The notes under the pieces were generated by a model. The model worked only from the letters and a program-made list of their open reading frames with translations. It was not told where the DNA came from and ran no database searches. Shown here one piece after another: positions 647 to 47,674 of a stretch of 64,000 nt of DNA (position 1 is the first letter of the stretch; each line of letters starts with the position of its first letter). This stretch comes from Candidatus Aenigmatarchaeota archaeon (GTDB taxonomy: Archaea; Aenigmatarchaeota; Aenigmatarchaeia; GW2011-AR5; JAGGXF01), in the NCBI GenBank assembly GCA_021157845.1, contig JAGGVU010000019.1, positions 2,410-66,409 on the forward strand, given 5' to 3'. A program made the translations under genes and the position numbers.

Positions 647-719
647 GGGTCGGTGGTCTAGTGGTTATGACGCTGCCCTTACAAGGCAGAGATCGCAAGT
701 TCAATTCTTGCCCGACCCA
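647..719 (+). tRNA. tRNA-Val (anticodon TAC), intronless
   Basis: Canonical cloverleaf: GGGTCGG acceptor, anticodon loop CTTACAA, T-arm GCAAGTTCAATTCTTGC, discriminator A. Confidence 0.85.
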
Positions 720-6102: not shown

Positions 6103-6140
<38 letters not shown>

Positions 6141-6232
6141 GCCATCTGAGTGGAGCTTTGGTGAGGCTTGTTCTAAAGTTGATTTTCAACTAATTGTACA
6201 AGTCGAACCAGAGCCCTACAAGGAGGGCTAAC

Positions 6233-7096
<864 letters not shown>

Positions 7097-9545: not shown

Positions 9546-10306
9546 AAATTTGGCTGTATGCTGAGACATCCAGTTAAGTTCTAGGTCCTGAGTAAGGAAC
9601 AATCCTAGAAATATGGACAATCAGCAGGAAACCGCGAGAGGTGATTTCTATGATAAAAAACAAATACCTTAACTGGTATTTAGTTGGCTTCACAGATGCA
9701 GAAGGTTGTTTTTCAATTTCATTAAAAAGAGAAAAAACAACTAAATTTGGATGGGCATTGGATCCAGTATTCCAAATAACACAGCATAAATCAAATGAAA
9801 AAGTTTTACATTTTTTCAAAAGACAACTGCATTGTGGAAGAATAATAGAAAAATCAGGACAACCAAATATTTTAGTTTATTTGGTTGATAATAGAAGACA
9901 ACTCGTAGAAAAAGTAATACCATTTTTCAAAAGATATAAACTGATTTTGAAAAACAACGATTTTCAGAAATTTACTGAAATTATAACAGACTTGGAAAAT
10001 AAACTGCATTCAAATAAAAAAACATTTATAGAATTAATAAAAAAATGTTTTGAAATGAATTTGAATGGTAAGCAAAGAAAATATGAGCTTGAATTTGTTT
10101 TGAAAAATCTAAAAAAATGAGCGGGATCCCCAGAGACTATACGCCAAACACAAAAATAGAACGGAGAGTATCCTTATTTTTGTGAAGAGATAGTCCGAAC
10201 CTTATGGAGACATAAGGAAACTTGTAGAAATACAAGTTCGCCTTATAGACAAAACATGCTTTGCATGTCAGTCTGTAAAGGTCATAAAGTAACAGATTGA
10301 GCGTAA
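9546..10306 (+). mobile_element. 23S rRNA intron 1 (about E. coli 1915-1930 region) with LAGLIDADG ORF
   Basis: Exon ...GGTGAAAATTGCCTT is interrupted and resumes at CCCTTGCCGGTTAAATGTTGGCCTGCA. Boundaries approximate. Confidence 0.5.
9641..10120 (+). CDS. LAGLIDADG homing endonuclease (single-motif)
   Basis: 159 aa; LVGFTDAEGCF motif. Confidence 0.7.
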   Translation: MISMIKNKYLNWYLVGFTDAEGCFSISLKREKTTKFGWALDPVFQITQHKSNEKVLHFFKRQLHCGRIIEKSGQPNILVYLVDNRRQLVEKVIPFFKRYKLILKNNDFQKFTEIITDLENKLHSNKKTFIELIKKCFEMNLNGKQRKYELEFVLKNLKK

Positions 10307-10804
10307 TCCCTTGCCGGTTAAATGTTGGCCTGCATGATAGATTAACGAGGTTTTCACTGTCCCAAACTAGACCCCGGCGAAACTATCTTTCTGGTGATTA
10401 GACCAGAGACCCCTAATGGGAAGAGTAGACCCCATGGAGCTTTACTGCAGTCTGTTGTTGTTGTATAATTATAATTGTATAGAGTAGGTAGGAGACGTCG
10501 ATATTAGGTCGTTAGATCTAATGGAGTCGCAATGTGTAACACTACCCTTTTATAACTATACAACTAACCTTCGGGGACATCAGCAGATGGGCAGTTTGAC
10601 TGGGGCGGTACGCCTCTGAAAGGATATCAGAGGTGCTCAAAGGTCGGCTCATCAGGGTCAGAAATCCTGAGTAGAGTGTAAAGGCAAAAGCCGGCTTGAT
10701 TGGATTTTGAACATCAAAAAATCCAAAGGCGAAAGCCTGACTTAGCGATACGCATGTTATCCTAGATGGATGCATGTGACATCAGAAAAGCTACCCTGGG
10801 GATA

Positions 10805-11528
10805 GTTTGTAGGTGGTTCTCAGTCGTTCAGCAAGCATATTCTAATTTTCGATCTCAAATACGAAAATTAGATAAGCTTACTTCACCTTAAATAAATCAT
10901 GAAAATTGAAAATTTTCAGTTAAACGCAAGAAATTTAACTAGTAACTATTTTTATGGATTTTTAGTTGGTGCTAGCGAAGACGGAACAGTTTATCAAAGA
11001 AAGAAGAAAAATGAATATATGGTAGAAATCGAGCAAAAATCTAAGTATTGGCTTGAATTTGTTCAGGAAATTATTTTGAGATTTTACAAAAAATCAGTGA
11101 AAATAAGAAAAACTTCAAAAGGATTTTACAGAATAAGAATTTATTCCAAGAAATTTTTCAATCAAATAAAAAAACACAGAATAAATTCCTCATGGATACT
11201 TAGAAAATCCAAAGAATTTCAACTAGGATTTCTTCAAGGAGTATATGATGCAGAAGGAAGTATTAAAAAATCCAGAAATCACATAACAATCAGTTCAAAT
11301 AGAAAAGATTTAATTAGAATATTACAGATTTTATTAACAAATCTTAATTTTAGACTAGGGAAAACTTGGAAAGATTATAATGGTGTTATTACTTTGCCAT
11401 TTTATGGTAAAGATAATCTGAAAAGATTTCAAGAATTAATAAATTTTAGACATCCGAAAAAGAAGGAAAGGCTTGCTGAGCTTCTGAACGATAATTACTT
11501 ACAGACCCCTAAAATGGTGTCGTAGCGG
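10805..11528 (+). mobile_element. 23S rRNA intron 2 (after CCCTGGGGATA, domain V) with LAGLIDADG ORF
   Basis: Conserved AAGCTACCCTGGGGATA is followed by non-rRNA sequence and the ORF. rRNA resumes near GAGAGTTCATATCGAC. Boundaries approximate. Confidence 0.5.
10899..11525 (+). CDS. LAGLIDADG homing endonuclease (double-motif)
   Basis: 208 aa; YGFLVGASEDGTV and LGFLQGVYDAEGSI motifs. Confidence 0.7.
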   Translation: MKIENFQLNARNLTSNYFYGFLVGASEDGTVYQRKKKNEYMVEIEQKSKYWLEFVQEIILRFYKKSVKIRKTSKGFYRIRIYSKKFFNQIKKHRINSSWILRKSKEFQLGFLQGVYDAEGSIKKSRNHITISSNRKDLIRILQILLTNLNFRLGKTWKDYNGVITLPFYGKDNLKRFQELINFRHPKKKERLAELLNDNYLQTPKMVS

Positions 11529-12157
11529 GTGAGAGTTCATATCGACCCCGCGTGTTGCGGCGTCGCTGTCGGCTCGCCCTCTCCTGGCTGTGCAGCAGCA
11601 GCCAAGGGTACCGGAGTTCACGGATTAAAAGGGCACGTTAGCTGGGTTTAGAACGGCGTGAGCCAGTTTGGACTATATCTGTTAGGGGTGCTTTTGTCTG
11701 AGAGTAAGGAAGAACAAGTACGAAAGGAACATTCTTCCGTGGCCTCTAGTCTACCAGTTGTCTGATAAGGCATCGCTGGGTAGCCACGCCACACGCGGAT
11801 AAGGGCTGAAAGCATCTAAGCCTCAAGCCGCTCTCGAAAATAGACAATGAGTGCCAGTAGAAGACTGGTTTGATAGGACAGGGGTGTAAGTATCAAGAAG
11901 AAATTCGAGATATTGAGCCTACTGTTACTAAAACTCACCAAAGCTAACCTTTAAATCAACTGAACCTGTGATTGTTTTTTTCTTTTTTTAAATTGTAGAT
12001 AAGTTTGATATTGCAGAAGCCTTTATAACTTAGAAGAGAAACAAAAAATAAAATCTACAGATAGAGAAGTTGCAATTACTCCGAAAGGTAAATCCTTTCT
12101 ATAAAGATTTATCTTTTACCTCAGTAATTTTTACAACTTTAGCATTTAAATAATTTA

Positions 12158-12669: not shown

Positions 12670-13004
12670 GGTAACTCGCTGAGCAACCGCCGTGCCTCAG
12701 GTTTTTCTGAGGCATGAGGAAGCTCTGTCCACCCAGAATGGTTTATAGCCATTCTAAAAGTATGGCCAAATTTTGGTTCAGGCGAGAGCCTGAGACTAAG
12801 AACAGAAACGATACTGGCTTCACACTGATTCGTGATGTGTGATTACTCTTCTTTCAAGGGAAGAGCCAGATGAAACGGCTTAGTCCATATGGGTGCAAGC
12901 TGTTTTAAAAGCGCATAGACAAATGGTTGCAACCCTGTTGATGACTTGTTCATAATGTAGAACAATGAAAGGGTTAACAAAAGACGGGCTACATCGAGTT
13001 ACCG
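12670..13004 (+). ncRNA. rnpB: RNase P RNA (candidate)
   Basis: P4-like strands GAGGAAGCTCTGTCCACCC and ACAGAAACGATACTGGCTTCA (compare E. coli ACAGAACCCGGCTTA). Closing helix GGTAACTCG / CGAGTTACC. Followed immediately by TTTTTTT. Confidence 0.55.
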
Positions 13005-13544: not shown

Positions 13545-14351
13545 ATGGTTCAGAATATATTTCTCGGTCCAGCCGGCTCTCCGGAGAAAAGTACAATAAG
13601 TGGAATTGAGACTATAAGAAAACTTGGGCTTCAGGCCATGGAAGTTGAATTTACATATGGCGTCAGGATGAGCAATGCGCTTGCAAAGAAAATTGGTAAG
13701 ATAAACAAAAAAGAAAAAATAAAACTGAGTGTGCATGCTCCGTATTGGATTAATCTTGCATCTACCGATAAAAAGAAAATTGAAGCAAGCAAAAAAAGGA
13801 TTTTAACATCATGCGAACGTGCACATTACATGGGTGCAAGTCCGGTTGTTTTCCACCCGGCGTTTTATGGAAAGCTAGAGAAAGAAAAAATTTACGATAT
13901 GGTTAAGACTGCTGTTATAGAGATGAACGACATAATTAAAAAAAACAAATGGTCTGTTAAATTGGCACCAGAAACAACTGGAAAACATTCACAATTCGGG
14001 ACTTTAGACGAACTCATAAAACTTTCAAAAGAGGTAAAATGTTTCATCTGTGTAGATTTTGCGCATATCTATGCACGGAATGGTGGAAAAATTAATTATT
14101 CTGATATCTTAAAAAAGATGAAATCATTGCGTCACATCAAACATTACCATTCACATTTTTCTGGTATTGAATTTACAGCAAAAGGAGAAAAAAGACATAC
14201 TATTATGTCAAAACCGGCTTTCAGACCGCTGGCTAAGGAAATTCTTAAGAAAAAAATGAGCATCACGATAATAAGCGAAAGTCCGGTAACGTGGAAAGAT
14301 TCTCAAAAACAAAAAAAGATTTTTGAAGATTTCGGGTATAAATTTAGTTAA
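13545..14351 (+). CDS. nfo: endonuclease IV (AP endonuclease family 2)
   Basis: 268 aa; VHAPYWINL, VVFHPA, LAPETTGK, CVDFAHIYA metal-ligand motifs. Confidence 0.8.
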   Translation: MVQNIFLGPAGSPEKSTISGIETIRKLGLQAMEVEFTYGVRMSNALAKKIGKINKKEKIKLSVHAPYWINLASTDKKKIEASKKRILTSCERAHYMGASPVVFHPAFYGKLEKEKIYDMVKTAVIEMNDIIKKNKWSVKLAPETTGKHSQFGTLDELIKLSKEVKCFICVDFAHIYARNGGKINYSDILKKMKSLRHIKHYHSHFSGIEFTAKGEKRHTIMSKPAFRPLAKEILKKKMSITIISESPVTWKDSQKQKKIFEDFGYKFS

Positions 14352-38036: not shown

Positions 38037-38249
38037 TTATTCGGTTTTTGCATTCACAGCAGCAGAAATCCAAAAAACACCTGCTGAAAGCAGAAGAATA
38101 AAAGTAATCAAAAGCGATAAAATGTAACTAGTTGTGGTTGTTCCTTCTACATATGCAATATTTCCGGCTATCATAGAGCCAAGCAGTAAGCATATGGTTC
38201 CAATTATCCACAATCCATGTACATGAAAATTAAATTTCATATATACCAC
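38037..38249 (-). CDS. small membrane protein, hypothetical
   Basis: 70 aa, two TM helices. Confidence 0.25.
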   Translation of the reverse strand: MVYMKFNFHVHGLWIIGTICLLLGSMIAGNIAYVEGTTTTSYILSLLITFILLLSAGVFWISAAVNAKTE

Positions 38250-38284: not shown

Positions 38285-39544
38285 TTATTTTTTTCTGCGA
38301 CCTTTTCTTCTTTTAGCTGATCTCTTTTTTTTAGATGAGGTTTTGCCATTTTCAATATCTTCTATTATTTTACTAATGTCTCTTACAAACCTTCTTACAT
38401 ATTCTCTTGCGAGCTGAACATCTTTTTCACTGATTTTATTTTCTTTCTTTTCAGCTACCATTTTCCTCATTGTTATGACTTTCTTGAACAAATCTCTATA
38501 TGAACTTTTTATTAACCCGGTTTCTATCAACTCTTTTTCTATAGCACGTGGAAGATCAGCCGGGTCTTCTGGAAGCTTATCCAGTTTCTTTAGCGTAGCA
38601 ACGACTGCCTTTATCATTATTTCATAGTTTTTAATTATAATATTTTCCTTTTTTTTCTTTTCTAGTGAAGAGAAAATTGACAGCATCTGCTTTAGATATG
38701 ATTTTGAAACTTTGATGAATTTATCTAATTCTCTTCCGCTTATTTTGGTTATTTTCTTATGCTCCACGTCTTTTCTGAATTGTACAATTTTTCTCAGGTC
38801 TGAGAGATATTTTCTTTTTAGTAATTTGTTTTTAACTAAATGCTTTTCAACCCCACTTACAATATGTTTCGGAGCAGGTGCCTCCACGCCCATGTACATA
38901 AGAACTGCTTGTGAAGAGTTTAGCATAGCATAGTAAACATCTTCCGCAACCATATATAACTTGGCCATTTCAACCCTTTGAATTTTTTTAGGTGCCCCCT
39001 CTATTAACAATGAGACTGCCTCTATCGTTCCCGGTATTTTACCAAGTTCCAAGAGTTTTCTTGTTGGTATGAAAAATCCTGTATCATAGAGTGCCCAACC
39101 GTCTCTTACTATCGTGTATAATAATGGATGGCCTATTCGCGCCATTTCCCAAAATTCTGTTAATGTCCACGATGGCTGAACATTTATATCTTTTGAAATA
39201 CTTTTTCCAATCTCCTGTATTTTTTTATCAAACACATTTTTCATCTCTTCTGTAAACCTAGCAGTAGTATCATCGATTATGACAAGAAGATCCACATCGC
39301 TTTTTTCATTAAAATCTCCACGAGCAAAAGAACCAAATATAACAACAGACTTGACAATTTTTCCAAATTTCTTGACAATCTTGTTTTTAAACTCTTCCGC
39401 TGCTTTAAGCTGCTTTTTCTTTAACCTTTCCAACGCTTTTTTTCTTTTCTTTTCCAGTTTTTCAATTTTTTGTTTTTCATCTATTTCCTCTTTTCTCAAT
39501 TTTTGTTCCATTTTTTCATTCAGAGTTGCCATGATAATCACCAA
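38285..39544 (-). CDS. Pol-beta-superfamily nucleotidyltransferase-domain protein with K-rich tails
   Basis: GSFARGDFNEKSDVDLLVI NTase motif; about 300 aa helical C-terminal region; C-terminal KKKRSAKRRKGRRKK. Confidence 0.55.
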   Translation of the reverse strand: MVIIMATLNEKMEQKLRKEEIDEKQKIEKLEKKRKKALERLKKKQLKAAEEFKNKIVKKFGKIVKSVVIFGSFARGDFNEKSDVDLLVIIDDTTARFTEEMKNVFDKKIQEIGKSISKDINVQPSWTLTEFWEMARIGHPLLYTIVRDGWALYDTGFFIPTRKLLELGKIPGTIEAVSLLIEGAPKKIQRVEMAKLYMVAEDVYYAMLNSSQAVLMYMGVEAPAPKHIVSGVEKHLVKNKLLKRKYLSDLRKIVQFRKDVEHKKITKISGRELDKFIKVSKSYLKQMLSIFSSLEKKKKENIIIKNYEIMIKAVVATLKKLDKLPEDPADLPRAIEKELIETGLIKSSYRDLFKKVITMRKMVAEKKENKISEKDVQLAREYVRRFVRDISKIIEDIENGKTSSKKKRSAKRRKGRRKK

Positions 39545-39703
39545 CTATCATATTCAAACATTATTTACTATTAACCAGTAACTATTTAAAGGTTTTTAAT
39601 ACGTTAGTTCTTCCAAATCCTTTAAAACATAATGCATTATATTTTGATGTGTATTTAAGTCTTATGTAAGGCTAGGATAAAGATGAATACGAAATAAAAA
39701 TAA

Positions 39704-41653
39704 TCATTTTAATTCTTCCTTTTTCCACTCAGCGCCTTTCCCCTTTTCCACAGCAGCCCTTGATAAAAACCCGTGCGTTTCTTCAGGTACGGCTAGTAGA
39801 CCTTGCAACGGGTCGAACGCATGCTCCCTTATTGCAATATTTTGTGCAGCTTCAAAATTTTTATTAATGCCGAAAAATTCTGGTGGAAGATCTTCAGGTG
39901 CTATATTTTTTTCAAGCGCGTCAATAATTTTTCTATAAGCTATAGCACTTTGTTTTACACCGTAACTTCCCATTTCCCATATTATGTATGTGTTCTTCAT
40001 TCCAGCTTCTCTAAGCTTGTATATGGTTCTATATAATATGTACATATCATTTGATAATAATGCTATTGGCGCGTGCGCACCTGGAATCGGCCTTGGCGCA
40101 TTCACATGCAGGCATCTTATATATTTTCCGTCACCTGGCATGGTTTTCATTATTTTTTCTGCCTCTTCTTCCGGGCTTATGAAATTTGTTGTTAAGTGTT
40201 CAGTATCCAAACAATACGAGATGTGTTCCGGATCAAGTACTTTTGCGATCTTGATGTGGTCAGTTGCCCGTATTATTCTCAACTTTCCTTCTGCTCCTTC
40301 GCTAGGCATATTTGTTTCTATAAATATATGTACTTTGTTTTTCTTTGCATACTCATACGGTGAAACAAATTTTTTTTCACCAGCAGGAATACCGTATTCT
40401 GGGCCGCTTGCCTTGAGATGTCCTTCTATGTATTTGGCAGCAACAGCTGTTATTATTTCTTTTATACTATCATCTAAACTACCTGTTTGTCCCATTTTGG
40501 TGTTTGCTTCTGAAATTATTTTATCTGGGTCTCTCTGGTCGGTTACTATTGAGGTATATAGCGGGTCTTTATTTTTCCACATCCACTTTGCTGTTGCATG
40601 ATAAACAACATATTCCTCTGCTTCTGAGCCATGTTCTCTCCAATATTCAAATACACTTGGGATATCCAACTGGTATAATGTTATTCTTCTGTAAATTGGA
40701 TATATTTTGTTATATTCACTCTTTCCGTATTTTTCAATTATTTTTTCTTTTATGAACTCAGAGCTATTATTTATAATTCTGCTATATCTTCTATCTTTGG
40801 CCGCTTTTGTTCTTCTTAGCTCGGTTAGCTCTTTAATCAGGTTTTCTCTTTTTTTATTTTCTTCGCTTGTTAACCCCTTTCTCGACCTTTTCAGTTCGAG
40901 CTCTCCCAACTCCTTTTCTTTGTTGCCTGCATCTTTTTCTAGCTGGTCGCTGTCTTCGGCAAGTTTTTTGAGTTCTTCTTTTATCTTGTTTTCAGCTTCT
41001 TCAAAAATTCCGTTTATCCTATCCATTTCCTTTTGAAAATTTTCAATATTATCAAAATATTTGACAACATCCACATCTGGTGGAGAGCCCATAGCAGAGA
41101 ACATAACTCGTATGAATTTTGCCATAAACCACTGTTTAAAATTAAATGATCCTCCGGATTCTTTAACAATCCAGTCCCCAAAATTCATTCCATTCCACGA
41201 TGCCATTTTCGACGGATATTGTCTCTGGCCTGATACAGGGGTTAGATTTGGACGAGGGTTGGACGATGTATGAAAGAGCATGAATTTTGCTTTCATTATA
41301 TCAGCTGCAGCAATGGTTCCAAGTTTAAGCTGTTCCTGCATCGTTGACCATATATAGGCATCTGCAAGACACAAATCCATCCTATAAGGAAGATGTAGGC
41401 CAACTTCTATATTTTGAGCCCTTTTTATATGTTCGACCTGCTGTTTTATATCCGGCTCAAACATTTCAGAAAGCGATTCAAAGTCTATCATTGCAAATTC
41501 AAAGCCAAGACGGGCCGCTTTTGTTATTTTTTTGGCCAGACCCATGAATGTTAGCCTGTTCTCACCTTGTTCAAACTGGGAAAATCCAGGGCTGACGCCA
41601 AGAATATATCCGATTGGTCTGTTTTCTTTGTCCCATTTTGGCATAGTTATCAC
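39704..41653 (-). CDS. xylose-isomerase/Endo-IV-like TIM-barrel protein split by a ~230-aa coiled-coil insertion
   Basis: VGLHLPY, FMLFHTS, ...VHIFIETN, CLDTEHL, YIIWEMG resemble AP-endonuclease-2 barrel motifs; central KE-rich heptad region. Confidence 0.4.
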   Translation of the reverse strand: MITMPKWDKENRPIGYILGVSPGFSQFEQGENRLTFMGLAKKITKAARLGFEFAMIDFESLSEMFEPDIKQQVEHIKRAQNIEVGLHLPYRMDLCLADAYIWSTMQEQLKLGTIAAADIMKAKFMLFHTSSNPRPNLTPVSGQRQYPSKMASWNGMNFGDWIVKESGGSFNFKQWFMAKFIRVMFSAMGSPPDVDVVKYFDNIENFQKEMDRINGIFEEAENKIKEELKKLAEDSDQLEKDAGNKEKELGELELKRSRKGLTSEENKKRENLIKELTELRRTKAAKDRRYSRIINNSSEFIKEKIIEKYGKSEYNKIYPIYRRITLYQLDIPSVFEYWREHGSEAEEYVVYHATAKWMWKNKDPLYTSIVTDQRDPDKIISEANTKMGQTGSLDDSIKEIITAVAAKYIEGHLKASGPEYGIPAGEKKFVSPYEYAKKNKVHIFIETNMPSEGAEGKLRIIRATDHIKIAKVLDPEHISYCLDTEHLTTNFISPEEEAEKIMKTMPGDGKYIRCLHVNAPRPIPGAHAPIALLSNDMYILYRTIYKLREAGMKNTYIIWEMGSYGVKQSAIAYRKIIDALEKNIAPEDLPPEFFGINKNFEAAQNIAIREHAFDPLQGLLAVPEETHGFLSRAAVEKGKGAEWKKEELK

Positions 41654-41660
41654 TTATAAA

Positions 41661-43304
41661 TCAATGGCCAACACCCATTTGGCTCTGTAAAAAGTTGACG
41701 ATTGTGTTAAACCTACCACCAACTGTCATTAGATGGAAGTTAGGTATTCTATCATAGAAGTCTCTTTCATATGGACCGCGTTTCAGAAATTTTAATGGGA
41801 TTCCAAAATAGTTGAAAAAGCTGTGTATAGGGTCTGTAATTTTGGTCAGAAATCCTCTTTTTTTTTCTTTATCTTCTTCCAGTTTGTAAAATTCTTCCGG
41901 ATATTCTTCTCTTAGCTTGTCCATTGTTTCAAATTCTTTTCCTTCTGCAACAAACTTTTTACCTTTTTTTATATAGCGCACTGTTTCTAAATATTTTTCA
42001 GAGCCAACAAGCTGGTTTACATATCGTTCGAATTCCTCATGCTTGGCCTTTATTTCCAGAAGTTTCACAAGAAGGATATTCTTGCTCACCATCTTTCCAG
42101 AGATGTCAAATGTTATATCTTCTAATTCGCTCCCGTCAGGCAACCTATACACATCACGCTGCATTTTTATTGGAAACACACTATAGTAGTCCTGTTCTTT
42201 CCCACTGGTCCAAAACGAGCCTTCAGCAATTAATTCTTTGGTTTTTTGTTCCACCCATTTTTCAGTTATCCATGGAAATTCCTCCACAAGACATTTTTCT
42301 CCATTTTTTCTCAGTTTTTTTCTTATATTTGGAAAATCTGCAGCCAAATCAAATATGAAATTTCTTTTGATAAACTCATCAAGCACAGGCGGTGATTTTT
42401 CTCCAAACAATTCACCAGATGTTTTTTTGAATTCTGCAACATCTATGTAATACCATGCAAATATTTCTATTGAATTCTCAGAAACAGCTTGTGCAGCTGA
42501 TTTATAATATTTGCCCGGTTCTGCTTTTCTAATACTGGGTCTTGACAGCCCTTCTTCTATTAATTTATGTTTTGCTATATATGGTTTTAGCCAGTTTTTA
42601 TATTCTTCTACAGACATTCTTCTGCTTCTCACCAAATTCAAAAGGCTTTTATACCGTTCTTTCACTTCTCTGCTAAATATGTGCTTCCATTGTTCATATG
42701 CTTTCCACTTGACTTTTAACATATCTCGTTCCACCTTTGGCAGGTTTGAAAGATATTTATCTTTTTCTAGGTCTTCCAGTGATTGCATAGACATAAAGTC
42801 TTGAACAATTGTTGGCATAATATTAGCATTGCGCATAAATGCCATGCTAAGCCGGCCCGCTCCTTGTGCAGCACCGCCAGTATAAAAGTCCACCTGATCT
42901 ACAAATATTGCTTTCAGGCTCGCTTCGTCTTTATTTTCAATATAGTTAATAAATTCCCTATATTTTCTTAGGTCATGCTTTAATAATTCTAGGTCTGCGA
43001 CAGCCTGAGATACAGATGCCAGACCCTGCTTTATTTTAGATTCAAGCTGCTCTTTTTGTTGTGTTGTAAGCTGAAAATATTGAGCATGAACAGGAGATAT
43101 ATTTATCCATTCATCTACTTTTATCTCTTTCCAGCCCCATTTTGGAATTTGAAATACAAGAGCATAAAACAGGTTAGTTCCTGTTCCTATTTTTCCTGTA
43201 AAGTCTAATGATGTTTTCGCTTCGTATGGCTGGGCATAACATCCCAACCCATGATGTGGGGCTTCTGGGCCCACCAACGCGTAAATTGCATTCCACGAAA
43301 CCAT
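41661..43304 (-). CDS. hypothetical protein, 547 aa
   Basis: Long ORF with no recognisable motif; 7-nt gap to the downstream gene. Confidence 0.4.
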   Translation of the reverse strand: MVSWNAIYALVGPEAPHHGLGCYAQPYEAKTSLDFTGKIGTGTNLFYALVFQIPKWGWKEIKVDEWINISPVHAQYFQLTTQQKEQLESKIKQGLASVSQAVADLELLKHDLRKYREFINYIENKDEASLKAIFVDQVDFYTGGAAQGAGRLSMAFMRNANIMPTIVQDFMSMQSLEDLEKDKYLSNLPKVERDMLKVKWKAYEQWKHIFSREVKERYKSLLNLVRSRRMSVEEYKNWLKPYIAKHKLIEEGLSRPSIRKAEPGKYYKSAAQAVSENSIEIFAWYYIDVAEFKKTSGELFGEKSPPVLDEFIKRNFIFDLAADFPNIRKKLRKNGEKCLVEEFPWITEKWVEQKTKELIAEGSFWTSGKEQDYYSVFPIKMQRDVYRLPDGSELEDITFDISGKMVSKNILLVKLLEIKAKHEEFERYVNQLVGSEKYLETVRYIKKGKKFVAEGKEFETMDKLREEYPEEFYKLEEDKEKKRGFLTKITDPIHSFFNYFGIPLKFLKRGPYERDFYDRIPNFHLMTVGGRFNTIVNFLQSQMGVGH

Positions 43305-43475: not shown

Positions 43476-43832
43476 TTAGAAAAATGTCCAGTAAATCCCA
43501 AGTATTATCAAGATAAGGCCAATCAGAATGCCCGTATGCGACAATCCACGATTCGGACCATAATACTGAATTTTCATTGTTGGATATTTCATAGCTAAAA
43601 AACCACCACACAATAATGTTATAATTCCGCCTATCCGCCCAATTAGCTTTGTCTGAACGGCTGAAATCATTTTTAGGCCAATCCATATGAATATGAGAGA
43701 TGTGATTATTATAATCAATAGTTGCCTATCTCCTATTTTTCTGTCATGGCTTGTTAACAAGAACAATGATAATAATGCAAACGCTATAAGGAATGATGCC
43801 ACAAGTTCTAATCCGACGATTTCCAGCAACAT
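43476..43832 (-). CDS. membrane protein, hypothetical
   Basis: 118 aa, four TM helices. Confidence 0.35.
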   Translation of the reverse strand: MLLEIVGLELVASFLIAFALLSLFLLTSHDRKIGDRQLLIIIITSLIFIWIGLKMISAVQTKLIGRIGGIITLLCGGFLAMKYPTMKIQYYGPNRGLSHTGILIGLILIILGIYWTFF

Positions 43833-43896
43833 ATTTATTTATATAGGATTTGATAAATAAATAATTAGTGTTCGCCAATACTAAGAGGGATTAAAA

Positions 43897-44406
43897 ATGG
43901 TATTTACAAGGACGAGGATAACCATATGGGACCAGATTTATAGGCCCAGAAAAAGTTCTATTGTGCGGTATAAAGGTCCTAATACCTCAAAGGCCTACAA
44001 AAAGGTATATAGACTGATTAAATCAATATTCAATGTGCCTTCTGGTTATATTCAAGAAAAGCTCTATAACTGGGAAAATGACAAAGACAAGCAAAGATTT
44101 TCCATAAGGTGGCAAGTTGACAAACCACTTGACCAGTACACATATATAGACTGGGACATTGAGCTGAAGGGGTTTGAAGCAAATAGGACGGGCGAGGTAG
44201 TTATTAGTATAGAGCCAAGGCTTATTACAGAATATCCACAGGATACAATATGGGAGCAAAGCATATTTTACGAGATGCTAAGACGTTTGTGGCATGTCTT
44301 ATTTTACGAAAAGAAACGGGAAGAATTTTTTGAGCTTGGAAAATCCCTAACACAGGAATTTGAAGAAAAGCTTAGAGACGAGTTAAATAAGTTAAAATCT
44401 TCTTAG
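43897..44406 (+). CDS. hypothetical protein (tandem paralog A)
   Basis: 169 aa; shares architecture with the next gene. Confidence 0.4.
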   Translation: MVFTRTRITIWDQIYRPRKSSIVRYKGPNTSKAYKKVYRLIKSIFNVPSGYIQEKLYNWENDKDKQRFSIRWQVDKPLDQYTYIDWDIELKGFEANRTGEVVISIEPRLITEYPQDTIWEQSIFYEMLRRLWHVLFYEKKREEFFELGKSLTQEFEEKLRDELNKLKSS

Positions 44407-44408
44407 TT

Positions 44409-44924
44409 GTGACTATTATGGATGATTTGTTTATATCAGACGATGTCTTGGGACCAGATGAAAAAATACTAATTATTTTTAAAGGCCAGAATCCGATGAA
44501 TATTTTAAAAATAATAAAAGCAGAGATAAAGAGTATTTATCAGATTCCTGGAAAAGACATAAAAACGCTTAAATTAAACTGGGACGCGTCATCTGACAAC
44601 AGAGAAATATATGCACAGTGGTTGATAGAAAAAAAAATGGATAAGTGGTCAAAAAATTGGGTAATTTTTATTGTTCAGGGTCATGTGGATGCTAAAACAA
44701 ACAAAGGAGACATAACCTTTATCATGGTGCCGAGAATACAAACAAAAATCAACTATTCAAACTTTTTACAAAGGGCTTTTTGGTACATATATAATAGATG
44801 GTTTTATAGAAAACAGCGAATGAAATACATCGAAGAGGCAAAGGATTTGGCTTTTAAGTTCAGGGATAAAATAACAGATGAGCTGGGCATTCCGAGGAAG
44901 ATGTATTTTGAGGATAGGGTGTGA
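44409..44924 (+). CDS. hypothetical protein (tandem paralog B)
   Basis: 171 aa; ...GDITFIMVPRIQTKINY... parallels ...GEVVISIEPRLITEY... in paralog A. Confidence 0.4.
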   Translation: MTIMDDLFISDDVLGPDEKILIIFKGQNPMNILKIIKAEIKSIYQIPGKDIKTLKLNWDASSDNREIYAQWLIEKKMDKWSKNWVIFIVQGHVDAKTNKGDITFIMVPRIQTKINYSNFLQRAFWYIYNRWFYRKQRMKYIEEAKDLAFKFRDKITDELGIPRKMYFEDRV

Positions 44925-45319
44925 TTTGCATGTCATTTTTTAATAAAATTTCGGGAAAGATAAAAAATATTTTTTCAAGAGGAAAAAAGGAAGAAATTAC
45001 GCAGATAAAAGAACGGGTTATCAACAAACCGACTCCACCGCTGGAAACAAGACCAAGAAATGACATAGCTATTAATGCAGACTTACCCACTACAAGTGAG
45101 CCAAGACCTGATTCCGTGCCACTGAGAGAGTCGCTTCTTCCAGAACCGAATACAGAGATAGCCAGACCGAGAATAGAATCTCGGTTATTAACACCCCAAA
45201 AAGAGTATAACAGAGAAGCTGATAACAGGGATGATTTAAGAAAACAGCTTCTTGCGATAGAGAAAAGACTGGACGCAATAGACCAAAGACTCAGCTCAAT
45301 AGAATCTAGGATTATATAG
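44921..45319 (+). CDS. hypothetical protein, disordered Pro-rich region plus C-terminal coiled coil
   Basis: 132 aa; ...LAIEKRLDAIDQRLSSIESRII. Confidence 0.3.
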   Translation: MICMSFFNKISGKIKNIFSRGKKEEITQIKERVINKPTPPLETRPRNDIAINADLPTTSEPRPDSVPLRESLLPEPNTEIARPRIESRLLTPQKEYNREADNRDDLRKQLLAIEKRLDAIDQRLSSIESRII

Positions 45320-45815
45320 GAACCAACATCGAAAGCCAGTGAGCAGTTTCTGCTTGCCAGCCTGTAGTTCTCAAGTCCAGATTAGTACATATCATACCTG
45401 ATTTATATATATCAACTTTATGTTTTGAGGTCGAAAGAGATATATAATCAATAGAGTAGGCATCTCTTACAATTTTATTTATCAGTTCTGACAAATTTTC
45501 ATATTTTTCTTTTTTAATTAGTTCATCTATTTTCTTTTCTATTTTTTCATTTTTCGGATTTATTTTAATTTTATTAATCCTTCCCCAGTCGGAAGTCCAG
45601 TATTCCAAAAATTTTGCTATTCTTTTGTCGGGAAATAGTGTGTAAACAATGGGTATGTCTTCATGATATTTTTTCTCAAAAGCTCCTATATTAGAATCAG
45701 GAATTTCTATTGTAACGAACTTCTTATCACCAACATCTATAGGAAACCAGAATGTATCCAATTTTTTATAATCCTCATCTGAAGCAGTTTTTTCGTAAAC
45801 TTGATATGTTTTCAT
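45312..45815 (-). CDS. hypothetical protein
   Basis: 167-aa ORF. Confidence 0.35.
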   Translation of the reverse strand: MKTYQVYEKTASDEDYKKLDTFWFPIDVGDKKFVTIEIPDSNIGAFEKKYHEDIPIVYTLFPDKRIAKFLEYWTSDWGRINKIKINPKNEKIEKKIDELIKKEKYENLSELINKIVRDAYSIDYISLSTSKHKVDIYKSGMICTNLDLRTTGWQAETAHWLSMLVPI

Positions 45816-45844: not shown

Positions 45845-47584
45845 TTAGGCACCAAGATAATACTCCCCACTTTCTTTTTGTTTTGTATCTTTTTGTGAAC
45901 CAAGCTTATTCGCCCGCGGTCTGTTTGTTTCAACATCTTTTCTAAATGTTACTCCAACCTCTTTTAGAAACGTGTTAAATCCGTCCTTCACTGACATGCA
46001 TTCTGCTTTTCCGATTTTTCCCGGTATTCCTGTAAAAACCATAGCCCGATCTGACAGATAGCTTAAAAACAACAAATCATGATCTATTACAAGGACAGAG
46101 GAATTTTCAGACCGAGTCTTTAAGATTTTAGCCACAGTCAACCTTTGGTCAACATCTAGGTATGCAGAAGGCTCATCCAATAAATATACATCTGCATTTT
46201 TTGCAAGGCATGAGGCTATTGCAACACGTTGTAACTCACCGCCAGACAAATCAGATATATTTTTTTCAAGAAGTTTTGTTAGCTCAAGGGGCTCCATATA
46301 TTTTTGCTTAAATTCCTGTTTTGATTGTACAACTTCTTCAACCTTTCCTTTAAAATCGGAAGAAATGTACTGCGGCTTATATGATATTTTTATTTTTTTA
46401 TCCAGCTCTCCGCTATCCGCGGTCGTCTCACCAGCCAGTATTCTTGCAAATGTCGTCTTTCCAAGCGCATTAGCACCAAATATGCCAAGAACCTCATTTT
46501 TGTAGATTTTATCTGATTTGATATTTAATTCGAATGTCTTAAATCGCTTTTTCAAATCTGTGAATTCTGTTAGGACTGGTTTTTTTATGACATTTTCTGA
46601 TACTGTTGACGAGAACACTGTTTTTTCTCTTATTCTAATATTATCTTCTCTTATATATCCTGATAAAAATGTGTTTATCCCATTTAAGGTGGAATATGGC
46701 TTTGATACAGCACCAAAAACACTTGGCACTCCGTAAAATATATGAATTCTGTCTGCCAAGAAGTCTAGAGTAGCCAAATCATGCTCAACAACCATTACAG
46801 GGCTTTTTTGCGATAATTCCCTTATAATCTTTGCAACGTTCATTCTTTGTCTGACATCCAAATATGATGACGGCTCGTCAAAGTAATATATGTCGGCTTT
46901 CTTTGAAACAGCTTTTGCTATAGCAACGCGCTGTAGTTCTCCTCCAGATAAATCTGCTATATTCCTGTCCAGGCAGTTTTTCAGTTCTAATCTATCTATT
47001 ATTGATTTATCAACGTCTTCTAGCAGTTCCTTGACAACTCCTTTACACACTTTCTTAATCTTGTCAACCTGCTGTGGTTTGTAAACTGTTTTTATCTCTT
47101 CTTTTGACAATTTTTCCAGATAGGTTTGTAATTCATTGCCCCTGTGCATTGTAATTATATCTTTCCATTCTACGTCTCTGTCAAAACATCCAAGATTTGG
47201 TTTTATCTCTCCACTTAAAATTCTAAGAGCAGTTGTCTTTCCGATTCCATTTGGTCCAAGAAGGCCAATAACACCCATCACCGGAATGGGTAACCTAAAA
47301 AGAACAAAACCATTTTGGCCAAAGCGATGTATAGGCGTTTCTTCCAGTGCTTCTGGTGTATTTACAATTGATATGGCCCTTTGACTGCATTTTTTTATAC
47401 ATATTCCACATCCAATGCACAATTTTTCATCTATGACAGGCAGTTGTTTTTTGACACCATTGACTAGCTTTTCCTCTATTCTTATACATTCCTCTCCTTT
47501 CCTGTTCACCGGGCAAAACCGCTTGCATGCATAGTTTGTTTTGGCCGGATTGCACAGGTCATAGTCAATTACAGCTAGTCGCAT
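45845..47584 (-). CDS. abcE1: ribosome recycling ATPase ABCE1 (RNase L inhibitor homolog)
   Basis: N-terminal Fe-S CPV...CIGCGICIKKC; two ABC cassettes with LSGGELQR. Confidence 0.85.
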   Translation of the reverse strand: MRLAVIDYDLCNPAKTNYACKRFCPVNRKGEECIRIEEKLVNGVKKQLPVIDEKLCIGCGICIKKCSQRAISIVNTPEALEETPIHRFGQNGFVLFRLPIPVMGVIGLLGPNGIGKTTALRILSGEIKPNLGCFDRDVEWKDIITMHRGNELQTYLEKLSKEEIKTVYKPQQVDKIKKVCKGVVKELLEDVDKSIIDRLELKNCLDRNIADLSGGELQRVAIAKAVSKKADIYYFDEPSSYLDVRQRMNVAKIIRELSQKSPVMVVEHDLATLDFLADRIHIFYGVPSVFGAVSKPYSTLNGINTFLSGYIREDNIRIREKTVFSSTVSENVIKKPVLTEFTDLKKRFKTFELNIKSDKIYKNEVLGIFGANALGKTTFARILAGETTADSGELDKKIKISYKPQYISSDFKGKVEEVVQSKQEFKQKYMEPLELTKLLEKNISDLSGGELQRVAIASCLAKNADVYLLDEPSAYLDVDQRLTVAKILKTRSENSSVLVIDHDLLFLSYLSDRAMVFTGIPGKIGKAECMSVKDGFNTFLKEVGVTFRKDVETNRPRANKLGSQKDTKQKESGEYYLGA

Positions 47585-47674
47585 TGTGAACACTTTATAA
47601 CTAATTTTTTATTAAAAGTTAATTAGGAATATTAATTAATAAACTTTATATTTAAGTTTCTTTAATAATTCTTT

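What the first reader, a model, noticed from the sequence alone, without database searches (positions are those of the whole stretch)
38285..43304. Co-oriented trio of unexplained large proteins: 547-aa unknown, TIM barrel split by coiled coil, NTase-fold protein with K-rich tails
Genes 41661-43304 and 39704-41653 are separated by 7 nt. The 649-aa product has motifs resembling the metal-binding strands of xylose-isomerase/endonuclease-IV TIM barrels (VGLHLPY, FMLFHTS, VHIFIETN, CLDTEHL, IIWEMG). These are interrupted by a ~230-aa K/E-rich coiled-coil insertion, an unusual barrel-with-stalk architecture. The 547-aa upstream protein has no recognisable motif. The downstream gene has a minimal Pol-beta NTase motif (GS-x9-DVD) between lysine-rich N- and C-terminal tails, so it could be nucleic-acid-directed. 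This could be an uncharacterised enzyme-scaffold system, but every element is inference from weak motifs.
Basis: inference. Interest (0 to 1): 0.55.

Follow-up and report, generated by a model that had tools for sequence, protein, structure and literature searches.

The report
Conserved DPANN enzyme-scaffold gene module
The three genes are real and belong to a larger gene cluster, conserved across the tiny symbiotic DPANN archaea, that joins an endonuclease-IV-like metal enzyme carrying a long helical stalk, a nucleotidyltransferase-HEPN fusion protein and several proteins unlike anything known; what it does has not been tested.

Summary
The window comes from an Aenigmarchaeota (DPANN) archaeon.

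- **649-aa protein.** It is a confidently modelled xylose-isomerase-like TIM barrel (pLDDT 90.6). About 310 residues are inserted between strands 4 and 5, including a ~120-residue coiled-coil hairpin. Its invariant His/Glu/Asp residues align with the metal ligands of endonuclease IV, not only with the four-ligand set of sugar epimerases.
- **419-aa protein.** It is a minimal nucleotidyltransferase fused to HEPN-like domains. Makarova et al. (2019) very probably already flagged this family as a DPANN-specific protein of unknown role in a housekeeping context.
- **547-aa protein.** It models well (pLDDT 85.8) but matches nothing in Pfam, PDB or BFVD.

The trio is the core of a larger module. The other members are two paralogous ~170-aa proteins, a small membrane protein and disordered proteins with conserved termini. 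These families recur as neighbours in several different arrangements across deep DPANN lineages. The module was absent from viral contigs, and no defence-system model matched it beyond generic NTase and coiled-coil hits.

My best guess is a housekeeping complex that processes nucleic-acid ends, with about 0.35 confidence. It is a new variant of known enzyme kinds inside an undescribed system.

The parts
38285..39544 (-). NT419: minimal nucleotidyltransferase fused to HEPN-like helical domains, with K/E-rich N-tail and K/R-rich C-tail (probable true start ATG at 39532)
   Evidence: Pfam NTP_transf_2 E 1e-11 and Polbeta E 1.4e-8. The profile matches kanamycin nucleotidyltransferase, E 6.7e-9. 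HepT-like/HEPN Pfam hits fall in the C-terminal half of relatives. 374 or more relatives.
39209..39382 (-). NTase catalytic core of NT419 (residues 55-112; G71 S72 ... D83 x D85 ... D91 D92)
   Evidence: These columns are invariant in alignment A5. The motif is present in 120 of 120 best relatives.
38450..38977 (-). HEPN-like region of NT419 (about residues 190-365) containing F-R-K-D-V-E-H (Rx4H)
   Evidence: HepT-like hit at 16.9 bits on the window fragment; two relatives score above the gathering cut-off. The Rx4H motif is in 109 of 120 relatives and is lost in the L038-L040 lineage.
39704..41653 (-). F649: endonuclease-IV-like xylose-isomerase-fold TIM barrel with a large inserted helical/coiled-coil module (probable true start ATG at 41644)
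   Evidence: AF2 model pLDDT 90.6, pTM 0.85. Foldseek matches TIM-barrel epimerases, xylose isomerases and Endo IV, TMt 0.62-0.67. hhalign to the window's own Endo IV-like protein gives Prob 86%, E 4.7e-6. PF01261 hit.
40319..41269 (-). Insertion between barrel strands 4 and 5 of F649 (residues 129-445)
   Evidence: DSSP of the model: strands at 124-128 and 442-446 with helices in between. H128 to E446 spacing is 274-431 residues in all 60 relatives.
40676..41038 (-). Coiled-coil hairpin within the insertion (residues 206-326)
   Evidence: Helices 206-259, 263-295, 297-309 and 311-326. K+E 34%; lowest sequence conservation of the protein (0.29) yet always present.
41661..43304 (-). F547: alpha/beta protein with a 50-60-residue helical hairpin (helices 74-123 and 190-248); no detectable relative outside its own family
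   Evidence: AF2 model pLDDT 85.8, pTM 0.76. No significant match in PDB (best E 0.013, TM 0.13) or BFVD. No consistent Pfam or PDB sequence hit. 369 cluster representatives among 1.84 billion proteins.
43476..43832 (-). TM118: small hydrophobic protein (about four predicted membrane helices) directly upstream of F547
   Evidence: Family found upstream of F547 or divergent from S169 in 13 loci. Membrane helices are inferred from the sequence.
43833..43896 (.). 64-nt AT-rich divergent intergenic region between TM118 and S169 (probable bidirectional promoter)
   Evidence: Sequence read: TTTATATA-like elements and GAGG before the S169 ATG. The promoter role is an inference.
43897..44406 (+). S169: about 170-aa protein of unknown fold, first of a paralogous pair
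   Evidence: Found with S171 in 22 of 46 loci. No Pfam, PDB, PHROG or PADLOC hit. Invariant TEYPQD and aromatic-rich helix.
44409..44924 (+). S171: paralogue of S169
   Evidence: hhalign of the S169 family against the S171 family: Prob 99.7%, E 3.6e-25. BLASTP 25% identity, E 7e-14.
44921..45319 (+). S132: low-complexity protein with N-terminal MSFFNKISGKIK motif and C-terminal helix; tentative member of the module's disordered-protein family
   Evidence: Same position and architecture as the disordered proteins next to the module in other loci. No BLAST link, so membership is tentative. Weak DUF7310 coiled-coil hit, E 0.009.
38037..38249 (-). Small hydrophobic ORF (70 aa) downstream of NT419; tentative accessory gene
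   Evidence: Relatives occur in 4 loci at the same position.

Best explanation
The trio is the core of a vertically inherited housekeeping gene module specific to DPANN archaea.

Shown here:
- F649 is an active-looking metallo-phosphoesterase of the endonuclease IV branch of the xylose-isomerase-like TIM-barrel superfamily. Candidates for eight of Endo IV's nine metal ligands are invariant or nearly so.
- About 310 residues of helical domain plus coiled-coil stalk are inserted between strands 4 and 5 of the barrel.
- NT419 is a catalytically intact minimal nucleotidyltransferase fused to HEPN-like domains.
- F547, the S169/S171 pair, a small membrane protein and disordered proteins with conserved termini travel with them.

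Inferred mechanism:
- The proteins assemble, through the helical hairpins of F547 and F649 and the terminal helices of the disordered proteins, into a complex that may be tethered to the membrane.
- The complex processes phosphodiester-linked substrates, most likely nucleic-acid ends.
- The HEPN domain, or another nuclease, cuts. The Endo IV-type three-metal site removes 3'-blocking groups or cleaves at damaged sites. The NTase then adds nucleotides to the 3'-OH that results.
- Whether the substrate is DNA (repair, or scavenging of host nucleic acid) or RNA (maturation or quality control) is open.
For: Fold and active site of F649.
- AF2 model pLDDT 90.6 and Foldseek TIM-barrel hits that include Endo IV entries 8edd, 3aal and 6khy.
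- hhalign of the insertion-deleted profile against the window's own nfo-like protein gives Prob 86%, E 4.7e-6. It aligns H87, H128, E446, D483 and H486 with the residues that HMMER aligns to S. aureus Endo IV.
- The best PDB profile hit is Apn1, aligning clDfEHl with CLDTCHL and HinaP with HLNDC, but it is not significant (E 0.31).
- H87, H128, D483, H486, H516, H527 and E560 are invariant and E446 nearly so in 60 sequences. Candidate residues at all these positions can also be read in the most divergent homologues.
- The nearest NCBIfam model is the phosphodiesterase CbiR (6 of 18 members, best E 3e-4).

NT419.
- The NTase motif is present in 120 of 120 relatives and Rx4H in 109 of 120.
- HepT-like hits, a basic protein (pI 9.9), and an HhH_5-like N-terminal extension in one lineage.

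Linkage.
- F547>F649>NT419 or sub-sets recur in at least four deep lineages and several arrangements.

Housekeeping character.
- The module lies in synteny with ABCE1, S3Ae, S15 and SMC.
- It is absent from IMG/VR.
- PADLOC matched only the generic NTase domain of NT419 and the coiled coil of F649, and PHROGs gave only weak hits.
- This agrees with the published note on the DPANN MNT-HEPN family (PMC6393860).
- In L004 the neighbours include an HhH-GPD glycosylase, PCNA, TatD and an ordinary Endo IV-like gene.
Against: - No substrate evidence exists.
- Foldseek ranks ketose 3-epimerases above Endo IV, and the E-D-H-E ligands are shared with them.
- The Endo IV ligand D229 has no counterpart (G/A-A-H), and no nfo model matches F649.
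- The Tyr that Endo IV inserts into DNA is not conserved (V in most members).
- The genome already has a separate Endo IV-like gene.
- MNT-type NTases characterised so far modify proteins or small molecules rather than extend nucleic acids (my own knowledge).
- The HEPN Rx4H motif is lost in the L038-L040 lineage.
- The membrane protein and disordered proteins are not explained by a repair or processing role.
- F547 is unlinked from F649 in a large sub-lineage.
- No covariation of coiled-coil lengths was found.
- Physical interaction could not be modelled.
Confidence: 0.35

Rival explanations
1. Membrane- or envelope-associated structural assembly (cell division, cell shape or host-contact apparatus of these ectosymbionts). 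F547, the S169/S171 pair, the membrane protein and the disordered proteins form the scaffold. The barrel and the NTase act on a non-nucleic-acid phosphodiester, such as a lipid head group or a phosphodiester-linked glycan.
For: A small multi-pass membrane protein is the conserved upstream partner of F547. The disordered proteins have a conserved short N-terminal G(L/F)xDKLK motif and a C-terminal helix. Coiled-coil hairpins occur in two large proteins. Five of the seven families have no enzymatic signature. The closest NCBIfam model, CbiR, cleaves a small-molecule phosphodiester.
Against: None of the large proteins has an evident signal peptide or membrane segment (my reading of the sequences). 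The N-terminal motif is only weakly amphipathic (hydrophobic moment 0.2-0.6). No ATPase or GTPase and no known cytoskeletal family is present. No Endo IV-family enzyme is known to act on lipids or glycans (my own knowledge).
Confidence: 0.17
2. A nucleotidylylation/de-nucleotidylylation switch. NT419, as in MntA-HepT systems, AMPylates a protein (its own HEPN domain, F547 or S169/S171). The F649 phosphodiesterase removes the nucleotide, and this regulates a housekeeping process.
For: NT419 belongs to the MNT-HEPN class. NCBIfam gives a sub-threshold match to the MntA antitoxin, 30.6 bits against a cut-off of 60. An NTase that makes a phosphodiester is paired with a phosphodiesterase that could break one.
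Against: No Endo IV-like enzyme is known as a de-AMPylase (my own knowledge). No conserved Tyr target was identified. The coiled-coil and membrane components are unexplained.
Confidence: 0.12
3. F649 is a sugar or sugar-phosphate isomerase/epimerase-type metabolic enzyme with a decorative insertion. Its neighbours are functionally unrelated.
For: The top Foldseek hits are D-tagatose/psicose 3-epimerases and UlaE. The E446-D483-H516-E560 set equals the epimerase metal site. JGI annotates two relatives as sugar phosphate isomerase/epimerase.
Against: Four further invariant His residues (H87, H128, H486, H527) are not all accounted for by the epimerase site, and at least H87 and H128 match Endo IV-specific ligands. 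NCBIfam's epimerase model hits 1 of 18 members at E 0.053, whereas CbiR hits 6 of 18. The conserved neighbourhood contains no sugar-metabolism genes.
Confidence: 0.1
4. The adjacency is inherited synteny without functional coupling: three unrelated lineage-specific genes that happen to sit in a slowly rearranging housekeeping region.
For: Within Aenigmarchaeota the whole region from ABCE1 to SMC is syntenic. F547 is unlinked in one sub-lineage. NT419 is adjacent in only 15 of 46 loci.
Against: The same families re-associate in different orders and orientations, while the flanking genes differ completely (L004, L005, L035, L038-L040, L044, L045). This is the signature of selection for linkage.
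Confidence: 0.08
5. A toxin-antitoxin or antiviral defence island built around the MNT-HEPN gene.
For: MNT and HEPN are typical toxin-antitoxin/defence domains. PADLOC candidate families PDC-S09/M70A/M05A hit the NTase domain.
Against: The gene is fused and mostly single-copy, and it is conserved across DPANN in a housekeeping context (PMC6393860). No PADLOC hit was found for the other proteins apart from a coiled-coil match. The module is absent from viral contigs, and there are no mobile-element neighbours.
Confidence: 0.03

Closest known systems
Endonuclease IV (Nfo/Apn1) family of AP endonucleases / 3'-repair diesterases
   Same: Same TIM-barrel superfamily. Conserved residues sit in the same order and on the same strand ends as the trinuclear-zinc ligands (H-H-E-DxxH-H-H-E). 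Local motifs are alike: HLPY...DL, LFHxxS, IETxxP, C(L/M)D(T/F)EH.
   Different: A roughly 310-residue helical/coiled-coil insertion between strands 4 and 5, plus a conserved 65-residue C-terminal extension. The D229-equivalent ligand is missing. The DNA-inserting Tyr is not conserved. No nfo HMM hit and no significant PDB sequence hit. The genome also encodes a separate short Endo IV-like protein.
CbiR cobamide-remodelling phosphodiesterase (AP endonuclease 2 superfamily; PMC7733943)
   Same: It is the best-scoring NCBIfam model for the barrel (6 of 18 members). It shows that this superfamily includes phosphodiesterases acting on non-DNA substrates.
   Different: Scores are far below the family cut-off (best E 3e-4; cut-off 105 bits). 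No cobamide genes are nearby. CbiR has no insertion.
Kanamycin nucleotidyltransferase-type MNT-HEPN fusions; DPANN cluster cls.004259 (NEQ050) of Makarova, Wolf and Koonin 2019
   Same: An N-terminal minimal NTase followed by HEPN-like helical domain(s). DPANN-specific, strongly conserved, in a housekeeping context.
   Different: Identity with cls.004259 could not be checked because no NEQ050 sequence was available. The paper does not mention linkage to an Endo IV-like barrel or to F547. The lysine-rich tails, or an HhH extension, are lineage-specific additions.
MntA-HepT (type VII) toxin-antitoxin systems
   Same: The same two domain types; sub-threshold NCBIfam match to the MntA antitoxin, 30.6 bits against a cut-off of 60.
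   Different: Here the domains are fused into one conserved chromosomal gene rather than a patchy, mobile two-gene module. A second, degenerate HEPN-like domain is present.
Ketose 3-epimerases / L-xylulose-5-phosphate 3-epimerase UlaE
   Same: Best Foldseek E-values (5e-4 to 2e-3), and a shared E-D-H-E metal site.
   Different: Four extra invariant His residues, the Endo IV-like motifs and the insertion. The epimerase HMM essentially does not match.
Las1-Grc3 type HEPN-nuclease processing complexes (analogy from my own knowledge, not tested)
   Same: A HEPN nuclease acting in a housekeeping RNA-processing role together with an end-modifying enzyme in one complex.
   Different: No homology beyond the HEPN class. 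The partner here is a phosphoesterase plus an NTase, not a polynucleotide kinase. This is purely a conceptual parallel.

Membership tests
Xylose isomerase-like TIM barrel superfamily (Pfam PF01261, AP_endonuc_2) | (beta/alpha)8 barrel recognised by the family HMM | tested here: met
   PF01261 scores 32.2 bits against a cut-off of 31.1 for the window protein, and 35 of 60 relatives hit (best E 1.6e-15). The AF2 model has eight strands. Foldseek probability is 1.0 with TMt 0.62-0.67.
Endonuclease IV (Nfo/Apn1) | Nine-residue trinuclear metal site (E. coli H69, H109, E145, D179, H182, H216, D229, H231, E261; numbering from my own knowledge) | tested here: inconclusive
   Candidates for eight of the nine positions are invariant or nearly so: H87, H128, E446, D483, H486, H516, H527, E560. 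Five are aligned by hhalign/HMMER through the window's own nfo-like protein. H516 is aligned only by a non-significant Apn1 alignment. H527 and E560 are placed only by their position in the model. There is no Asp at the D229 position (G-A-H). Metal content is untested.
Endonuclease IV (Nfo/Apn1) | Match to curated nfo models / significant similarity to solved Endo IV structures | tested here: not met
   No NCBIfam nfo hit for F649 or for the insertion-deleted alignment. Best PDB profile hit is Apn1 at E 0.31. By contrast, the window's 268-aa protein hits nfo models at E 5e-16.
Endonuclease IV (Nfo/Apn1) | Compact single-domain barrel of about 250-300 aa | tested here: not met
   649 aa, with 274-431 residues between the strand-4 His and the strand-5 Glu in all 60 relatives.
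Endonuclease IV (Nfo/Apn1) | DNA-intercalating Tyr/Leu after the first His (HxxYL; role known from my own knowledge) | tested here: not met
   Tyr in the window protein (HLPY) but Val or Thr in most relatives.
Endonuclease IV (Nfo/Apn1) | AP-endonuclease / 3'-diesterase activity | not testable with these tools
   Needs biochemistry.
CbiR cobamide phosphodiesterase (NF041277) | Score above the curated cut-off and a cobamide-gene neighbourhood | tested here: not met
   Best E 3e-4, 6 of 18 members, cut-off 105 bits. No cobamide genes in 46 neighbourhoods.
Ketose 3-epimerase / sugar isomerase | E-D-H-E single-metal site and a match to epimerase models | tested here: inconclusive
   The ligand set is present and the Foldseek top hits are epimerases. 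However, the epimerase HMM hits 1 of 18 members at E 0.053, and the extra invariant His residues are not explained.
Minimal nucleotidyltransferase (Pol beta superfamily, PF01909/PF18765) | hG[GS] ... [DE]x[DE] ... third carboxylate | tested here: met
   G71 S72, D83 x D85 and D91 D92 are invariant, and the motif is present in 120 of 120 relatives. Both Pfam models score above their cut-offs.
HEPN domain (fused to MNT, KNTase-like architecture) | Helical HEPN fold with an Rx4-6H motif | tested here: inconclusive
   HepT-like scores 24.4-24.7 bits (cut-off 23.5) in two relatives and 15-21 bits in five others; the window fragment scores 16.9 bits. RKDVEH is present in the window protein and in 109 of 120 relatives. 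hhalign to a stand-alone HepT is not significant. No structure was predicted.
DPANN cluster cls.004259 (NEQ050; PMC6393860) | Orthology with NEQ050 | not testable with these tools
   The description matches (MNT fused to HEPN, housekeeping context, DPANN-specific), but no NEQ050 sequence was available.
Toxin-antitoxin / anti-phage defence systems | Recognised defence models, patchy or mobile distribution | tested here: not met
   PADLOC hits only the generic NTase domain and the coiled coil. No IMG/VR relatives. Conserved housekeeping synteny.

The most novel reading that the evidence does not exclude
The module encodes a previously unrecognised machine, restricted to DPANN and probably essential there. 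It is built from folds with no known relatives (F547, S169/S171) around an Endo IV-type barrel on a coiled-coil stalk and an MNT-HEPN enzyme. It carries out a lineage-specific 'cut, heal, extend' processing of RNA or of scavenged host nucleic acid at the membrane. That function would help explain how these reduced ectosymbionts maintain or acquire nucleic acids.
Probability: 0.15. Interest if true: 0.8.

Novelty: new variant of a known kind. Interest (0 to 1): 0.58.

Why it matters
DPANN archaea are a large radiation, mostly uncultured, with reduced genomes. In 2019 only a handful of lineage-wide protein families of unknown function were listed as top priorities for experiment, and the MNT-HEPN fusion was one of them (PMC6393860).

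This analysis places that enzyme in a conserved neighbourhood with two other kinds of component:
- an endonuclease-IV-like metalloenzyme with an unprecedented stalk insertion;
- several proteins with no detectable relatives.

An isolated 'hypothetical' protein therefore becomes a multi-component system with concrete assays: metal content, phosphoesterase substrates, nucleotidyl transfer and complex formation.

If the module proves to process nucleic-acid ends or scavenged nucleic acids, it would bear on how these symbionts survive with minimal repair and biosynthetic capacity. If not, it still defines a new architectural variant of the Endo IV barrel and at least two new protein folds or families.

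Tried and rejected
Searches that found nothing significant:
- Sequence-profile searches of PDB for F547, full-length F649 and S169.
- Foldseek of the F547 model against PDB and BFVD. There were only low-TM hits; an apparent enrichment of ssRNA-phage maturation proteins had TM about 0.1 and was judged meaningless.
- Pfam on 69 F547 relatives and on distant F547-like proteins: no recurrent family.
- PHROGs and PADLOC. PADLOC's significant matches were confined to the generic NTase domain of NT419 (PDC-S09 and similar) and the coiled coil of F649 (LmuB).
- IMG/VR scan.
- Rfam around the module.

Comparisons that failed or were uninformative:
- hhalign of full-length F649 against an ordinary AP_endonuc_2 protein failed because of the insertion. 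Deleting the insertion (A3) rescued it.
- A forced global hhalign did not give a usable alignment of the C-terminal barrel half.
- hhalign between module families found no hidden homology other than S169-S171.
- hhalign of NT419 against a stand-alone HepT was not significant.
- Covariation of coiled-coil lengths between F547 and F649, as a proxy for pairing: rho 0.16-0.26, p > 0.3, n = 17.

Tools unavailable or exhausted:
- The F547 alignment was too divergent to seed the genome scan.

Literature:
- Searches found no description of the module beyond the 2019 note on the MNT-HEPN family.

Ideas considered and dropped:
- A toxin-antitoxin or defence reading.
- A viral or mobile origin.
- SMC-like homology of the insertion, which is only coiled-coil similarity.

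Full report
**Observation**

The window is from a low-GC DPANN archaeon. The 547-aa product is 100% identical to a hypothetical protein of a Candidatus Aenigmarchaeota MAG. The neighbours are archaeal housekeeping genes: SMC, geranylgeranyl reductase, a Bud32-like kinase, S15, S3Ae and ABCE1. An rRNA operon and RNase P RNA also lie in the window.

The quoted barrel motifs are present, and each contains residues that are invariant or nearly so in 60 relatives. Small corrections:
- Relatives and near-identical database entries indicate ATG starts at 41644 and 39532.
- The NTase motif is GS-x10-DVD.
- The barrel interruption is about 310 residues. Only residues 206-326 form a K/E-rich coiled-coil hairpin.

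**The 649-aa protein (F649)**

Pfam detects PF01261 in the C-terminal half and in 35 of 60 relatives. An AlphaFold2 model built on 60 relatives is confident (pLDDT 90.6, pTM 0.85). It has eight barrel strands. Between strand 4 (124-128) and strand 5 (442-446) lie a short helical region, a long helical hairpin (206-326) and a further helical domain (331-414).

Foldseek against PDB returns only xylose-isomerase-like barrels: ketose 3-epimerases, UlaE, xylose isomerases and several endonuclease IV entries. TM-scores normalised to the targets are 0.62-0.67 when the alignment spans both halves. The fold therefore does not discriminate between sub-families, but the residues do:
- Beyond the E-D-H-E set shared by the whole superfamily (E446, D483, H516, E560), the family has invariant H87, H128, H486 and H527.
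- All of these sit at the C-terminal ends of strands 3, 4 and 6 and in the loop after strand 7.
- I deleted the insertion from 18 relatives to make alignment A3. Its profile aligns with the window's own short Endo IV-like protein (13545-14351; nfo models E 5e-16, S. aureus Endo IV E 1.5e-4) at 86% probability, E 4.7e-6.
- That alignment matches GLH87LPY to VHAPY, LFH128 to VFHP, IE446T to PET, and D483-x-x-H486 to DFAH. These are the positions HMMER aligns with Endo IV.
- The best PDB profile hit, though not significant, is Apn1 (E 0.31). The best NCBIfam model is the phosphodiesterase CbiR, a member of the same superfamily that cleaves a non-DNA phosphodiester (PMC7733943).
- By inspection, candidate residues at all eight ligand positions are also present in the most divergent homologues found (L044, L045).

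Features that do not fit Endo IV:
- The D229 position lacks an Asp.
- The Tyr that follows the first His is not conserved.
- No nfo model matches.

I conclude that F649 is a divergent barrel of the Endo IV branch, most probably a multi-metal phosphoesterase, and not a bona fide Nfo. The insertion is present in every relative (274-431 residues). Its hairpin is the least conserved part (0.29 against 0.66 for the barrel). The flanking helical parts and a 65-residue C-terminal extension are well conserved.

**The 419-aa protein (NT419)**

- Pfam NTP_transf_2 and Polbeta both score above their cut-offs.
- The family profile matches kanamycin nucleotidyltransferase and MntA-type proteins in PDB.
- The catalytic G-S, D-x-D and D-D are invariant and present in 120 of 120 best relatives.
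- The C-terminal 230 residues give recurrent HepT-like/HEPN Pfam hits: two relatives above the gathering score, the window fragment at 16.9 bits.
- An Rx4H motif (RKDVEH) is present in 109 of 120 relatives. The L038-L040 lineage has lost it and instead carries an N-terminal extension with HhH_5-like hits.
- JGI annotates relatives as 'nucleotidyltransferase/UPF0332'.

[quoted passage not shown] The authors listed it as a top-priority unknown (PMC6393860). I could not verify orthology for lack of the NEQ050 sequence.

**The 547-aa protein (F547)**

The model is good (pLDDT 85.8, pTM 0.76). It shows an N-terminal beta-alpha-beta unit, a hairpin of two 50-60-residue helices (74-123, 190-248) with the most conserved motif of the family on it, two beta-rich regions and C-terminal helices. 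Nothing significant matches it in PDB or BFVD, in PDB by sequence profile, or in Pfam. An exhaustive profile search of 1.84 billion cluster representatives finds 369 members. One of the distant members sampled carries a Nanohaloarchaea name. Two of them still sit in the same gene order.

**The module**

I mapped seven family profiles on 46 loci. These were contigs of relatives, 37 loci from GTDB species representatives (all DPANN by title, apart from two probably mis-binned MAGs) and the window. The trio turns out to be the core of a larger set:

| Family | Loci (of 46) |
|---|---|
| F649 | 45 |
| S169/S171 paralogous pair | 22 |
| F547 | 20 |
| Disordered proteins with G(L/F)xDKLK start and L..IK.LR.QN..IL..L end | 19 by BLAST, plus look-alikes in the window, L001, L044 and L045 |
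| NT419 | 15 |
| Small membrane protein TM118 | 13 |

S169 and S171 are paralogues at hhalign 99.7%. The disordered-protein family is described.

Arrangements differ:
- S171<S169<|>TM118>F547>F649>NT419 in the window, L001, L004/5, L007-9 and L032.
- S169>S171>disordered<|>F649(>NT419) in many 'Nanohalarchaeota'/Nanobdellati contigs.
- F547<TM118<|>S169>S171 in L035.
- F547>F649>NT419 with three disordered-protein genes upstream in L044/L045.

In the second arrangement F547 is encoded elsewhere in the same genome, again behind a small gene. L003 and L047 are from one assembly. The flanking genes differ between these lineages, so repeated re-association rather than frozen synteny links the families. 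ABCE1 is within a few genes in 13 loci from several lineages; I treat that as context only.

The module has no PHROG hit of note, and PADLOC matches only the generic NTase domain and the coiled coil. It has no relative in IMG/VR and no Rfam element.

**Mechanism**

Shown:
- Two enzymes with intact, strongly conserved active-site residues: a multi-metal phosphoesterase of the Endo IV branch and an MNT-type nucleotidyltransferase with a mostly intact HEPN motif.
- They are genetically linked to each other, to a protein of new fold with a helical hairpin, to a paralogous pair, to a membrane protein and to disordered proteins.

Inferred:
- The proteins form a complex, using the hairpins and terminal helices. 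It acts on phosphodiester-linked substrates.
- I favour nucleic-acid end processing (confidence 0.35). Endo IV chemistry removes 3' blocks and cleaves at lesions. HEPN domains are RNases that leave cyclic phosphate ends. NTases need a free 3'-OH. NT419 is very basic (pI 9.9), and one lineage adds an HhH. In L004 the neighbours are a DNA glycosylase, PCNA, TatD and an ordinary Endo IV-like gene.

Against this:
- There are membrane and disordered components.
- The DNA-inserting Tyr is not conserved.
- A separate Endo IV-like gene is present in the same genome.
- Characterised MNT enzymes have protein or small-molecule substrates.
- The Rx4H motif is lost in one lineage.
- F547 is unlinked in one clade.
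- There is no coiled-coil length covariation.

The rivals are listed with their own tests: a structural or envelope assembly with a non-nucleic-acid phosphodiester substrate, an AMPylation switch, a sugar epimerase, mere synteny, and a defence island.

**Novelty and verdict**

The two enzyme domains belong to known superfamilies, and the MNT-HEPN family has very probably been flagged before. New here:
- the Endo IV-like barrel with a stalk insertion;
- the F547 and S169/S171 families without detectable relatives;
- the demonstration that they form one conserved DPANN module with the MNT-HEPN gene.

I found no paper describing this, although the library searched is incomplete. I rate it a new variant of known kinds embedded in an undescribed system, with interest 0.58.

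Noticed in passing
window 4504-6256 and 7423-11950: The SSU rRNA spans 1753 nt against a 1478-nt model. The LSU rRNA spans 4528 nt against a 2987-nt model. Both genes therefore carry large insertions, probably introns. ORFs at 7942-8334 (-), 9641-10120 (+) and 10899-11525 (+) lie inside the LSU span and could be intron-encoded proteins.
   Followed up: no
window 13545-14351 (+): A separate short (268 aa), divergent endonuclease IV-like gene. It hits nfo models at E 5e-16 (below their cut-offs) and S. aureus Endo IV at E 1.5e-4. In L004 and L005 a comparable gene lies close to the module's NTase.
   Followed up: partly
window 12670-13003 (+) and 647-719 (+): Archaeal RNase P RNA (89.9 bits) just downstream of the rRNA operon, and a tRNA-Val(TAC).
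   Followed up: no
window 45845-47593 (-); L001, L005, L007, L008, L032, L039, L040, L044, L045: The ribosome-recycling factor ABCE1 (RLI) lies within a few genes of the module in lineages whose other flanking genes differ. This could be ancient synteny or a hint of a link to translation.
   Followed up: partly
L021 and L026 (GTDB records titled Methanosarcinales and Bathyarchaeota): These contigs carry the same module arrangement and near-identical genes as 'Nanohalarchaeota' contigs L022/L023. They are probably DPANN contigs mis-binned into other MAGs.
   Followed up: no
L038-L040, 12552-14390 (+): In this Nanobdellati lineage the NTase is 553-595 aa. It has a ~150-residue N-terminal extension with HhH_5-like hits (E 5e-4, below cut-off), and the HEPN R and H are replaced (FAKDVEY).
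   Followed up: partly
L004 3790-5070 (+): A form III-like RuBisCO large-subunit gene sits inside the module, between the S169/S171 pair and F547. Cytidylate-kinase-like genes flank the module in L004 and L005.
   Followed up: no
window 45312-45815 (-): A 167-aa ORF between the module and ABCE1 has no relative in any of the other 45 loci and no family hit.
   Followed up: no
B6U68 genome (proteins P0339 and P0358): The same Aenigmarchaeota MAG encodes two NT419-family paralogues, B6U68_02175 next to the module and B6U68_02555 elsewhere. The NTase is therefore not strictly single-copy.
   Followed up: no
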